Of a stretch of 16,672 nt of DNA, positions 14,292 to 15,974 are shown one piece after another (position 1 is the stretch's first letter; each line of letters begins with the position of its first letter). The stretch lies in the IMG/VR virus record IMGVR_UViG_2850767282_000002; one strand, written 5' to 3'. Origin of the DNA: a virus (taxonomy: Duplodnaviria; Heunggongvirae; Uroviricota; Caudoviricetes). Position numbers and translations under genes: made by a program. Under the pieces are notes generated by a model that ran no database searches, was not told where the DNA came from, and saw nothing but the letters and a program-made list of their open reading frames with translations.

Positions 14292-14350
14292 GAAATTGGC
14301 CTCAGATTAATGTTAAGCGTCTTGCAGGACGCGTAGTGTTAACTGGGGCT
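14248..14350 (+). ncRNA. sok: candidate Sok-like antisense RNA region (promoter plus transcript)
   Basis: Plus-strand -35 TTGCCT (14248..14253), 17-bp spacer, -10 TAACCT (14271..14276), antisense to the mok start region; the transcript 3' end is not identified. Confidence 0.3.
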
Positions 14351-14492
14351 TTTCTCTATCTGCCGTTGGTGTCCATGCCCGAGGCAGATAGCCTCAAGCA
14401 CCCGCAGTCATTCTACTTAACTAAGATTTCCCCGCAAACCGTTTTTGTCCAGCACAGTAAATATCCAACTAAACCAATGGAGTTCGCTGTAT

Positions 14493-14711
14493 TTACCGCC
14501 AGTATTCAATGCACATGACCGCCATGGACACCCCTAAAAAAAGGGCATTTATATATCCAAATATTAATATCAAAACATCAACTTTTTCCATATACCTTGC
14601 TGTGAAGATGATGGGCATACATGATACGAACAACCAGAACGCAACAAACAAAAACTGCAATGCGTTTTTCATTATTCCTCCTACAATCAATGTGCAATTA
14701 CATTTAAACAC
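14493..14711 (-). CDS. hypothetical small membrane protein
   Basis: 72-aa strongly hydrophobic ORF (two predicted TM segments) in an AT-rich tract between the hok leader and IS1 copy 3; unrecognised and could be spurious. Confidence 0.25.
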   Translation of the reverse strand: MFKCNCTLIVGGIMKNALQFLFVAFWLFVSCMPIIFTARYMEKVDVLILIFGYINALFLGVSMAVMCIEYWR

Positions 14712-14754
14712 ACCTCAATTTGGCCGGACATATAAATATCGGTGATGCTTCCAA

Positions 14755-15150
14755 TTAGTAGAACATGTGTTTTTCAATAAACGTCCCGATGACTTTTTCG
14801 TGGATCTCTACTGAACGCGAGAAGCAGATTGTTTTACGAGCCAAGCGCTTAATGCGGGTGCGCAGCGTCAGGTTATTGCGCTCAATCCGTCGGGTGAATA
14901 TTTTTCCGGTCAGATGCTTATCCTTCGGCACTTCCCGGCCATAGCTGCCCCAGTCGTCGCTGGTGATCATGCCGATGTTGAATGGCGTAAGCAGTGCCAG
15001 TAGTTCCCGGCAGGTTTCATCGGTACGGGGACCAAAAGTGTAGGCCAGTACCCCCCCTGTTTTGGTGTTATACGCGTACCAGAGCCAGTGTTGCCGGGCT
15101 TTACTGCCAACGAAACTCCATTGCTCATCAAGTTCGCAGATAAGCGCCAC
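14755..15150 (-). CDS. insB: IS1 InsB (divergent lineage)
   Basis: 131 aa; differs from copy 2 by Q to R (KIFTRRIERNNL). Confidence 0.9.
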   Translation of the reverse strand: MALICELDEQWSFVGSKARQHWLWYAYNTKTGGVLAYTFGPRTDETCRELLALLTPFNIGMITSDDWGSYGREVPKDKHLTGKIFTRRIERNNLTLRTRIKRLARKTICFSRSVEIHEKVIGTFIEKHMFY

Positions 15151-15176
15151 ATCGGCATGAGCAACGGGCGAAGACG

Positions 15177-15449
15177 TTATTCGCTTTGGCGTGAGTTTTT
15201 TAAAGTCCGGATGACGGTGTTAATGCCAATTTTCAGTGTCCTGGCGGTATCGCGAACCCCGGCGCCATTGAAGGCCATTTCAGTGATCAGCTCTTTAATG
15301 CCCGGCTTACGGGCCTCATAAGTGTAAGTGAGCTGAAAAACGCGGTGGCAGTCACGGCAGCGAAATCTGTCATGGCCTTTAGGGTTCTGACCATGGCGGT
15401 AGACCTGTGCAGACTGACAACGAGGACAATGAATGTTAACGCTGGCCAT
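15177..15449 (-). CDS. insA: IS1 InsA (divergent lineage)
   Basis: Identical protein to the other divergent-lineage InsA copies. Confidence 0.9.
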   Translation of the reverse strand: MASVNIHCPRCQSAQVYRHGQNPKGHDRFRCRDCHRVFQLTYTYEARKPGIKELITEMAFNGAGVRDTARTLKIGINTVIRTLKNSRQSE

Positions 15450-15974
15450 GAAAGAACCTCAAAAGCCCGCATTATACATCAGATTCAACTAATTAGAGGC
15501 ATCACCTAAATATCTAAACTAGAAAAAATCACTTACATAGCGTTACAAACTCTTTAGTCTAAAGGTTCATCGTAAAACATTCCCCATACTTATCAGTGCG
15601 TTCCGCGCCAGGTAGCTCATTGCCTTATCTGGCAACCTATAATCAGGTTTCCGCTTTTTCAGTTGGCTGGTCGTTTAACCGACATAGTTAACCCATTAAT
15701 CTAGTTGCCGGATGTTGGTGGATTATCGCGTTTTAGTTGTTCATAAAAGTGCACAGCTTTAACCAGTTTTTCTGATGTAACCGGGACTGGTGAGGCAGTG
15801 AATAAGGCCTGAATTTGATAGTTCGGCCTGTCGTTACAATCCTCTTTTTTCGGTACATATTTCCAGTCACCAGACCACTACTTCCCCTGAAAGTCCGTAA
15901 CGCCTTTTTTCACGTAGCGGGTGATGCTGCCAACTTACTGATTTAGTGTATGATGGTGTTTTTGAGGTGCTCCA

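What the first reader, a model, noticed from the sequence alone, without database searches (positions are those of the whole stretch)
14292..15918. AT-rich tract upstream of hok with a hydrophobic 72-aa ORF and a 412-bp ORF-free segment between two IS1 copies
Seen in sequence: 14292..14740 and 15507..15918 were contiguous before the IS1 copy 3 insertion (TSD TAAATATC). The tract holds a two-TM 72-aa ORF (14493..14711), a 9-bp-stem hairpin CTATCTGCC/GGCAGATAG at 14358..14395, and a perfect TATAAT at 15637..15642 with no good -35. Established knowledge: in Qin this position is occupied by relBE. Inference: the content here is different and unrecognised, either a small membrane protein or a long structured hok leader plus a regulatory remnant.
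Basis: partly seen in the sequence, partly recalled or inferred. Interest (0 to 1): 0.4.

Follow-up and report, generated by a model that had tools for sequence, protein, structure and literature searches.

The report
Unannotated small membrane gene beside hok
The tract is the ordinary upstream flank of a prophage hok/sok toxin-antitoxin locus, split by an IS1 element; it holds the known hok mRNA 5' hairpin, a dead phage gene fragment, and a probably real but uncharacterised 59-residue membrane-protein gene that RefSeq annotation skips.

Summary
The features exist, with offsets of 1-4 nt. The IS-free reconstruction is real: it occurs at 99% identity in E. coli.

Most of the tract is ordinary:
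- The 9-bp hairpin is the first stem-loop of the hok mRNA. Rfam RF01794 matches full length at 111 bits. The 5' tac element pairs with the 3' fbi element.
- The "ORF-free" 412 bp is mostly the last 86 codons (plus stop) of a nin-region phage gene (PHROG 660). It carries two nonsense codons and is cut by the second IS1.
- The TATAAT is at chance level and specific to this lineage.

The 72-aa ORF is better read as 59 codons (14672 to 14493, minus strand) with an AGGAGG ribosome-binding site. ORF length alone is not significant. However, a 39%-identical paralog of the same length exists in E. coli. It aligns without gaps while the flanks carry indels, and pN/pS is 0.48 in this frame only. That paralog also lies next to a hok remnant.

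The gene sits in about 29% of complete E. coli genomes and is never annotated in the RefSeq records sampled. It matches no Pfam, PHROG, NCBIfam, PADLOC or PDB entry. Recent variation (8 nonsynonymous, 1 synonymous) shows no constraint. Its function is unknown. Interest is low to moderate.

The parts
13985..14405 (-). Full-length hok mRNA (ends approximate): 5' tac element, leader, mok/hok coding region, 3' fbi element and terminator
   Evidence: Rfam RF01794 matches 14403..14229. In the fold, the 5' GCGGGUGCUUGAGG pairs with the 3' CCUCAACGCACCCGC, with z = -7.1. A terminator-like hairpin AACCCGCTTCGGCGGGTT followed by a T run is present (in L001). The tac/fbi mechanism is described in PMC9841398.
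14356..14391 (-).
   Evidence: The arms were located. They are paired in the Rfam consensus structure and in the minimum-free-energy fold of the whole mRNA.
14079..14291 (-). mok reading frame (70 codons) that overlaps hok; the hok CDS is 14079..14234 (51 aa)
   Evidence: The ORF is listed. Pfam HOK_GEF matches at E = 3e-23. Relatives annotate the gene as hokD.
14410..14437 (-). Inferred hok promoter: TTGCGG (14437..14432), a 16-nt spacer, TAGAAT (14415..14410), with +1 at about 14403-14405
   Evidence: Read directly from the sequence. The consensus scanner did not call it, because the -35 matches only 3 of 6. Its position fits the homology borders of other hok loci at about 14450, 14425 and 14405. 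This part is inferred, not shown.
14493..14672 (-). ORF59: a 59-codon gene for a two-helix membrane protein, MKNALQ...IEYWR.
   Evidence: A gapless 39%-identical paralog of the same length exists. pN/pS is 0.48 (p = 9e-5), and this is the only frame free of stops in both copies. The flanks carry indels while the ORF carries none. Polymorphism density is lowest here. Hydropathy and the AlphaFold model give helices 2-24 and 31-58.
14677..14682 (-). Shine-Dalgarno AGGAGG, 4 nt upstream of the ORF59 ATG
   Evidence: Read from the sequence. Four of 32 haplotypes have AGGGGG instead (q467).
14733..14740 (.). Left copy of the 8-bp IS1 target duplication TAAATATC
   Evidence: IS-free relatives carry a single copy.
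14741..15506 (-). Divergent IS1-family element (766 bp). Its insA/insB-like ORFs read towards ORF59. It lies 68 nt upstream of the ORF59 ATG.
   Evidence: ORFs are and terminal repeats. The window holds two further copies at 99.3-99.5% identity, and blastn gave no alignment to the canonical IS1 copies.
15507..15514 (.). Right copy of the target duplication TAAATATC
15515..15658 (-). Non-coding spacer downstream of the dead gene. With 14673..14740 it forms the 212-nt spacer in front of ORF59. It contains the hairpin AACCTA-TAAT-CAGGTT (15634..15649), whose loop side gives the TATAAT at 15638..15643.
   Evidence: This is among the most polymorphic stretches of the region, with 25 variable sites in about 195 nt.
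15659..15919 (-). Pseudogene: the last 86 codons plus stop of a 138-aa nin-region phage protein (PHROG 660), with two in-frame stop codons. Its 5' part is removed by IS1.
   Evidence: The translation aligns to residues 53-138 of intact WP_001400256.1, with 73 of 86 positions identical. PHROG 660 matches at E = 2.5e-46. RefSeq relatives annotate a frameshifted pseudogene here.
15920..16672 (+). Canonical IS1 copy that truncates the PHROG 660 gene and runs off the end of the window
   Evidence: The terminal repeat GGTGATGCTGCCAA is at 15920.

Best explanation
[quoted passage not shown] It lies in the nin region of a Qin-like lambdoid prophage of a Shigella dysenteriae-like genome, and IS1 insertions have broken it up.

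Read along the minus strand, which is the direction of phage early-right transcription, it contains:
1. A dead 3' fragment of a PHROG 660 gene (15919 to 15659).
2. A 212-nt spacer into which a divergent IS1 inserted, with an 8-bp duplication.
3. A 59-codon gene, ORF59 (14672 to 14493), with an AGGAGG ribosome-binding site.
4. A weak hok promoter.
5. The hok mRNA, starting at about 14403-14405.

Shown: the 9-bp hairpin is the first stem-loop of the hok mRNA. The 5' tac element beside it pairs with the 3' fbi element. In the published model this pairing keeps the full-length mRNA untranslatable until 3' processing.

Inferred: ORF59 most likely encodes a small inner-membrane helical hairpin. The charge distribution suggests both N- and C-termini face the cytoplasm. 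It belongs to an extra AT-rich accessory ('moron-like') module of about 430 nt that only some prophages carry between the last nin gene and hok. It would be transcribed with the phage early-right operon. In this window, transcription may instead come by read-through from the IS1 that now sits 68 nt upstream. Its cellular role is unknown. My best guess is a membrane-acting prophage accessory protein, not a component of hok/sok.
For: hok part:
- Rfam RF01794 matches full length, 111 bits against a gathering score of 59.
- Pfam HOK_GEF matches at 3e-23, and the mok frame overlaps hok.
- The 5'-3' pairing appears in the fold, with z = -7.1.
- The mechanism is described in PMC9841398.
- Other hok loci share homology only from about 14450, 14425 or 14405 leftwards.

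Pseudogene.

IS1 and the reconstruction.

ORF59 as a gene:
- An exhaustive HMMER search found a 59-aa paralog at 39% identity (E = 7e-8), with the same length and no gaps.
- The conserved residues are W13, S17-C18, P20-I21-I22, T24, F38-G39, N42-A43-L44, E56, W58 and R59.
- Between paralogs pS = 0.71 and pN = 0.34 (Fisher p = 9e-5). This is the lowest ratio of all six frames, and the only frame without stops in both copies.
- The ORF has no indels over 180 nt at 59% nt identity. The alignable flanks have 3-4 indels in about 100 nt.
- Polymorphism density is lowest in the ORF: 5% against 9-18% in the flanks, across 32 haplotypes.
- AGGAGG lies 4 nt before the ATG.
- There are two hydrophobic helices.

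Separate module:
- In O157:H7 and BL21/C41 prophages, homology to the hok cassette begins about 75 nt after the preceding gene, with no such tract.
- ORF59 is at 1,624 places, against 15,809 hok-leader-like places.
Against: - ORF length is at chance level for this composition.
- Recent variation within the hok-linked clade is 8 nonsynonymous to 1 synonymous. That shows no sign of purifying selection on the protein.
- Only two lineages exist, both confined to E. coli and Shigella, so the coding test rests on a single pairwise comparison.
- NCBI's RefSeq pipeline annotated nothing here in any record listed from the searches, which matched about 1,570-1,590 genomes.
- The scan found no sigma-70-like promoter or terminator for the ORF.
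- The paralog has only a weak Shine-Dalgarno sequence.
- Disrupted alleles, by IS insertion or frameshift, are common in databases.
- This copy carries a private F49S change in helix 2.
- There is no expression evidence.
Confidence: 0.62

Rival explanations
1. ORF59 is not a gene. The segment 14406..14740 plus 15515..15658 would then be a non-coding, T-rich spacer whose composition yields hydrophobic open frames by chance. Its only roles would be to carry the hok promoter and to offer an AT-rich target for IS elements.
For: - 16-21% of shuffles give an ORF this long, and the opposite strand holds an even longer one.
- Recent substitutions are 8 nonsynonymous to 1 synonymous.
- RefSeq annotated nothing here in any listed record.
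- There is no family, fold or literature hit.
- The distribution is narrow.
- IS1 and other IS elements insert here repeatedly.
Against: - A paralog 41% diverged at the nucleotide level keeps the same start, stop and length with no indel, while the flanks are full of indels.
- The pN/pS asymmetry is specific to this frame.
- The conserved residues are polar or special ones (W, SC, P, G, N, E, WR), not only generic hydrophobic ones.
- There is a strong Shine-Dalgarno sequence.
- The ORF is the least polymorphic stretch of the region.
Confidence: 0.28
2. ORF59 is a functional partner of hok/sok. It would be a second small membrane toxin, or a modulator or immunity factor of Hok, inherited with the locus as one cassette.
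For: - In both diverged lineages the ORF lies directly upstream of hok on the same strand. The paralog at the ttcA-uspF islet is followed 55 nt later by a hok remnant with 80% nt identity.
- All 85 fetched prophage copies that could be aligned have the hok leader downstream.
- The protein is small and hydrophobic, like type I toxins.
Against: - Only about 10% of hok-leader-like places in E. coli have ORF59 upstream.
- Other prophage and plasmid hok loci lack it, and their homology stops at the hok promoter or at +1.
- The ORF stays intact where hok is dead, and hok is intact where the ORF is absent.
- No antisense promoter, terminator or structured RNA was found around the ORF.
- It has no similarity to Hok.
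- The shared adjacency is explained by common descent of two similar nin regions.
Confidence: 0.07
3. The tract would be a long structured 5' extension of the hok mRNA plus a regulatory remnant, driven for instance from the TATAAT at 15638.
For: None beyond the presence of a hairpin and a TATAAT.
Against: - The hairpin lies inside the canonical leader.
- The upstream 335 nt are not structured (z = -0.6).
- The TATAAT is on the opposite strand to hok, is at chance level, and reads TGTAAT in the IS-free relative.
- The segment around it is the region downstream of a dead gene.
- Diverse hok loci begin homology at about 14405.
Confidence: 0.02

Closest known systems
[quoted passage not shown]
   Same: The window has a Hok/Gef toxin and an overlapping mok frame. 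Its leader matches the Rfam hok/sok model over the full length. It also has 5' tac to 3' fbi pairing and a terminator. The Hok protein is identical to the commonest HokD allele in the fetched relatives.
   Different: K-12 hokD has lost everything upstream of -14 relative to the ATG to the relBE module. This copy keeps the complete leader and promoter. It also carries an extra AT-rich module with ORF59 upstream.
Small two-transmembrane phage membrane proteins (class II holins and pinholins, superinfection-exclusion proteins) and lambdoid 'moron' cargo genes
   Same: The size (59 aa), the two predicted helices, the AT-rich composition relative to neighbours, and presence in only a subset of otherwise syntenic prophages all fit.
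   Different: There is no sequence or significant fold match to any holin or other family. It is not in the lysis cassette, and relatives have their own class II holin elsewhere. No promoter or terminator of its own was found. This is a resemblance of kind, not membership.
Type I toxins (small hydrophobic peptides with an antisense RNA)
   Same: It is a small, strongly hydrophobic peptide next to a known type I locus.
   Different: It has two helices rather than one. No antisense RNA signals and no structured mRNA were found, and it has no similarity to Hok.
PHROG 660 (lambdoid nin-region protein of unknown function; intact example WP_001400256.1, 138 aa)
   Same: The minus-strand translation of 15659..15919 aligns to residues 53-138, with 73 of 86 positions identical.
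   Different: It has two nonsense codons, and IS1 has removed the first 52 codons, so it is a pseudogene.

Membership tests
[quoted passage not shown] | Hok/Gef family toxin of about 50 aa | tested here: met
   Pfam PF01848 matches at E = 3e-23 and 81.6 bits, against a cut-off of 22.
[quoted passage not shown] | Conserved leader RNA (tac, ucb, mok SD, Sok target) upstream of hok | tested here: met
   Rfam RF01794 covers model positions 1-157 at 111 bits, against a gathering score of 59, at 14403..14229 on the minus strand.
[quoted passage not shown] | Long-range pairing of the 5' tac element with the 3' fbi element in the full-length mRNA | tested here: met
   The minimum-free-energy and centroid folds pair nt 1-14 with CCUCAACGCACCCGC near the 3' end, with z = -7.1. 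The feature is defined in PMC9841398.
[quoted passage not shown] | mok reading frame overlapping hok | tested here: met
   A 70-codon ORF at 14079..14291 (minus strand) contains hok in frame.
[quoted passage not shown] | Sok antisense RNA with its own promoter; toxicity and post-segregational killing | not testable with these tools
   The Sok promoter was not examined separately. Activity requires an experiment.
Protein-coding gene (ORF59) | Reading frame kept open, with the same ends and no indels, in a diverged homolog | tested here: met
   The paralog P0039/P0034 is 59 aa, gapless and 39% identical at the amino-acid level (59% at the nucleotide level). The flanks carry indels.
Protein-coding gene (ORF59) | Excess of synonymous over nonsynonymous change, specific to the frame | tested here: inconclusive
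   Between paralogs pN/pS = 0.48, p = 9e-5, the best of six frames. Within the hok-linked clade there are 8 nonsynonymous changes to 1 synonymous.
Protein-coding gene (ORF59) | Ribosome-binding site at the conserved start | tested here: met
   AGGAGG lies 4 nt before the ATG at 14672. The paralog has only AGGGA.
Protein-coding gene (ORF59) | Evidence of transcription and translation | not testable with these tools
   No paper holds the peptide. It is absent from the supplementary files of the O157:H7 Sakai small-gene study.
Hok/Gef family (for ORF59) | Sequence similarity to Hok | tested here: not met
   There is no PF01848 hit at E <= 1. hhalign gives a probability of 2.5%.
Type I toxin (for ORF59) | Overlapping or adjacent antisense RNA gene, and a structured toxin mRNA | tested here: not met
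   There are no promoter-like or terminator-like sites around the ORF in the IS-free locus. The fold z-score is -0.6. No Rfam hit reaches threshold there.
Class II holin (for ORF59) | Two transmembrane helices | tested here: met
   Hydropathy windows exceed 2 in two blocks. The AlphaFold model has helices 2-24 and 31-58, with pLDDT 71.
Class II holin (for ORF59) | Position in the lysis cassette next to the endolysin; match to a holin family | tested here: not met
   It lies in the nin region beside hok. The related prophage has a separate class II holin and lysozyme elsewhere. There is no Pfam, PHROG or NCBIfam hit, and all BFVD fold matches have E > 1.
PHROG 660 (for 15659..15919) | Profile match of the intact homolog, and collinear alignment of the remnant | tested here: met
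   The intact protein matches at E = 2.5e-46. The remnant aligns to residues 53-138 with two stop codons.
IS1 insertion | Terminal inverted repeats, insA/insB ORFs, a target duplication, and an empty site elsewhere | tested here: met
   The empty site is seen in L001, L008 and others.

The most novel reading that the evidence does not exclude
ORF59 would define an orphan family of two-helix membrane proteins restricted to E. coli and Shigella. It may have arisen from T-rich prophage spacer DNA, as proposed for de novo membrane proteins in yeast (bioRxiv 10.1101/621532, seen). Under this reading the family travels with prophage hok/sok loci and acts together with Hok at the inner membrane, either as a second toxin or as a modulator of Hok insertion or toxicity.
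Probability: 0.07. Interest if true: 0.5.

Novelty: new member of a known kind. Interest (0 to 1): 0.25.

Why it matters
Most of the finding turns out to be known biology: the hok/sok leader, a decayed phage gene, and IS1 damage.

What remains is a likely small membrane-protein gene. It sits in about 29% of complete E. coli genomes, and a paralog sits in another 19% or so. No RefSeq record listed from the searches annotates either copy, and neither belongs to any family. If it is real, it adds one more case to the under-annotated small membrane proteome of prophages. It also gives a simple, testable candidate for a prophage accessory function.

The comparison also shows what an uninterrupted hokD locus looks like, and where the K-12 relBE module and other IS elements cut into it.

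Tried and rejected
- Family searches for ORF59 gave nothing significant in Pfam, PHROGs, NCBIfam and PADLOC. The PDB sequence search gave nothing. All BFVD fold matches had E > 1 and were generic helical hairpins.
- Similarity to Hok was rejected.
- The apparent 59-67% 'homologs' P0031 and L010 are not diverged relatives. P0031 is an IS-truncated allele. L010 comes from an assembly full of single-base indels.
- The one-genome-per-species scan found only Shigella and E. coli. The paralog occurs on only one viral contig.
- The antisense 78-79-codon ORF, annotated 'hornerin' or hypothetical in three phage records, is rejected. It is not open in the paralog, and its frames show pN/pS of 0.65-1.24.
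- Higher GC at third codon positions looked like a coding signal in this copy (0.50) but is absent in the paralog (0.33), so I dropped it.
- An Rfam scan at permissive E-values found nothing credible beyond the hok leader.
- The promoter and terminator scan found no signals for ORF59.
- Literature searches for the peptide, and the supplements of the O157 Sakai small-gene study, gave nothing. The recent Hok survey preprint does not mention an upstream ORF in the passages retrieved.
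Full report
**Observation**

The window's right end was read directly, and ORFs were listed. An IS1-family element occupies 14741..15506. It is flanked by TAAATATC at 14733..14740 and 15507..15514. A canonical IS1 begins at 15920 and runs off the window.

Joining 14292..14740 to 15515..15919 gives a sequence that exists uninterrupted in E. coli. Strain SW071618 has it at 99% identity over both flanks, and many others at 95-97.5%. These carry a single TAAATATC.

Some coordinates are slightly off. 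The hairpin arms are at 14356..14364 and 14383..14391. The TATAAT is at 15638..15643. The tract has 41-42% GC, against 50% for the window.

**Setting**

Annotated relatives show a Qin-like lambdoid prophage read on the minus strand. The order is replication and nin genes, then hokD, rem, a DUF968 gene, RusA, the Q antiterminator, tRNAs and the lysis genes.

The exact ORF product of this window is recorded only from Shigella dysenteriae. The window holds at least five IS1-family copies.

**The hairpin and the hok leader**

Rfam's hok/sok leader model RF01794 matches 14403..14229 (minus strand) over its full length, at 111 bits against a gathering score of 59. The 70-codon ORF at 14079..14291 is mok, and it contains hok at 14079..14234 (Pfam HOK_GEF, E = 3e-23).

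Folding 14405 to 13982 pairs the 5' GCGGGUGCUUGAGG with the 3' CCUCAACGCACCCGC, just before a terminator hairpin (z = -7.1). This is the tac/fbi fold-back. In the published model it keeps full-length hok mRNA untranslatable and inaccessible to Sok until 3' processing (PMC9841398).

Other hok loci in E. coli chromosomes and plasmids share homology with this window only from about 14450, 14425 or 14405 leftwards. That places the promoter and +1 where expected. An inferred promoter reads TTGCGG, 16 nt, TAGAAT at 14437..14410.

The 335 nt upstream fold no better than shuffles (z = -0.6). There is no long leader, and the hok 5' structure fully explains the hairpin.

**The 'ORF-free' 412 bp**

On the minus strand, 15919..15659 translates as RYVKKGVTDFQGK*WSGDWKYVPKKEDCNDRPNY...GN*INGLTMSVKRPAN*. 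It aligns to residues 53-138 of an intact 138-aa prophage protein (WP_001400256.1 in strain CEA106S). 73 of 86 positions are identical, and two codons are stops. The intact protein belongs to PHROG 660, of unknown function. The second IS1 removes the first 52 codons. RefSeq marks the same gene as a frameshifted pseudogene in several relatives.

The TATAAT lies 16 nt past this gene's stop codon, on the opposite strand to hok. It sits inside a small hairpin that reads AACCTG-TAAT-CAGGTT in the IS-free relative, so the TATAAT there is TGTAAT. TATAAT occurs at chance frequency in the window.

**The ORF**

Length alone means little. 16-21% of dinucleotide-preserving shuffles of the 481-nt tract give an ORF as long, and the other strand holds a 79-codon ORF. 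No Pfam, PHROG, NCBIfam, PADLOC or PDB match exists.

Word-indexed homology search found only E. coli and Shigella sequences that are near-identical over the stretch they share. Many are 59-aa forms starting at the internal ATG, and several are alleles truncated by IS insertion or frameshift.

The exhaustive HMMER search added a second group, P0034 and P0039. It is 59 aa and 39% identical, with the same length and no gap. The invariant residues are W13, S17, C18, P20, I21, I22, T24, F38, G39, N42, A43, L44, E56, W58 and R59. The 13 N-terminal codons of the 72-aa form are not conserved. The gene is therefore 14672 to 14493, preceded by AGGAGG with a 4-nt spacer.

At the DNA level the two groups are 59% identical over 180 nt with no indel. 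The roughly 100 alignable flanking nucleotides contain 3-4 indels, and the rest is unalignable. Nei-Gojobori counts give pS = 0.71 and pN = 0.34 (Fisher p = 9e-5). The other five frames give ratios of 0.63-1.24 and contain stops in one or both copies.

Among 86 fetched copies (32 haplotypes of the region), the ORF is the least polymorphic stretch. It has 9 variable sites in 177 nt and no indels, against 9-18% in the flanks. Those 9 sites are 8 nonsynonymous and 1 synonymous, so recent evolution shows no protein-level constraint. hok in the same set shows 4 and 4. This window's copy carries a private F49S change.

Hydropathy and an AlphaFold model (pLDDT 71) give two helices, 2-24 and 31-58, joined by a short acidic or neutral loop. 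Fold search returns only insignificant generic hairpins.

I put the probability that this is a real protein-coding gene at about 0.65-0.7.

**Distribution and linkage to hok**

The ORF occurs at 1,624 places in 1,567 of 5,426 complete E. coli genomes, all at 95% identity or more. Every listed record has no annotated feature there.

The paralog occurs in 1,045 genomes, mostly B2 strains, and is also unannotated in every listed record. It lies in an AT-rich islet between ttcA and uspF, which is the Rac attachment region. It sits beside an integrase remnant and a DUF1627 remnant. Its stop codon is followed 55 nt later by a dead hok fragment, VTKKDLHQVRI*, with 80% nt identity over 66 nt. Both lineages therefore have the ORF directly upstream of hok.

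This adjacency is best explained by common descent from similar nin regions. hok-leader-like sequences occur at 15,809 places in 5,422 genomes, so only about 10% have the ORF. In O157:H7 and BL21/C41 prophages, homology to the hok cassette begins about 75 nt after the preceding gene, with no AT-rich tract. The ORF thus sits in a separate accessory module of about 430 nt. It has no similarity to Hok and shows no antisense-RNA signals.

**Comparison with K-12**

In Qin, homology with this window starts at 14248, which is 14 nt before the hok ATG. relE and relB lie upstream.

In phage PhiR42_1 and in 32 of 85 fetched copies, an IS sits exactly at the hok ATG. In PhiR42_1 it is followed by flxA, ydfV and relBE.

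**Verdict**

The finding is a composite of ordinary parts plus one modestly interesting item, a likely unannotated orphan small membrane-protein gene of unknown function. Literature searches found no description of it.

Noticed in passing
L071 1938-1990; L008 about 2938; L005 3438-4830 (equivalent to window 14233): In 32 of 85 fetched prophage copies an insertion sequence (end TGTTAACACCAAGCTGTAATGTCCCC...) sits exactly at the hok start codon and separates an intact leader from the toxin gene. In phage PhiR42_1 it is followed by flxA, ydfV and relBE. K-12 Qin looks like a deletion derivative that keeps only window 14248 to 13950.
   Followed up: partly
L020 2602-2781 and 2836-2901 (E. coli ATCC 11775, ttcA-uspF islet): A paralog of the 59-aa ORF is followed by a dead hok fragment, next to integrase and DUF1627 remnants at the Rac attachment region. 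It is present in 1,045 of 5,426 genomes at 99% identity or more and is unannotated in every listed record. It looks like a fossil lambdoid prophage in B2 strains.
   Followed up: partly
window 5963-6729, 8628-9393, 14741-15506; also about 9812-10579 and 15920-16672: There are three copies of a divergent IS1-family element, 99.3-100% identical to each other and giving no blastn alignment to the canonical IS1, plus at least two canonical IS1 copies, all within 16.7 kb. This density fits the Shigella dysenteriae origin suggested by exact protein look-up.
   Followed up: partly
window 6911-7094 (-): There is an Rfam match to the sRNA STnc100 (79 bits against a gathering score of 47). It lies directly beside an IS1 end at 6716-6729.
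   Followed up: no
window 10619-10692 and 10794-10866 (-): There are two tRNA genes between the antiterminator and the lysis region. The related E. coli prophage has three (Ile, Thr, Gly). An IS1 end at 10566-10579 lies just beside them, so one tRNA may have been lost.
   Followed up: no
L010 (E. coli ECMA0423, CP178302.1) 1866-3100: This public chromosome shows many single-base indels in homopolymers across several genes, including the PHROG 660 gene and the 59-aa ORF. These are probably uncorrected long-read errors. Its '67% identical homolog' is an artefact.
   Followed up: yes
window 14509-14745 (+); L005 2907-3158; L006 2907-3164: Three deposited phage genomes annotate the opposite-strand ORF over this tract, once as 'hornerin'. 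That ORF is not conserved in the paralog and is probably a mis-call.
   Followed up: yes
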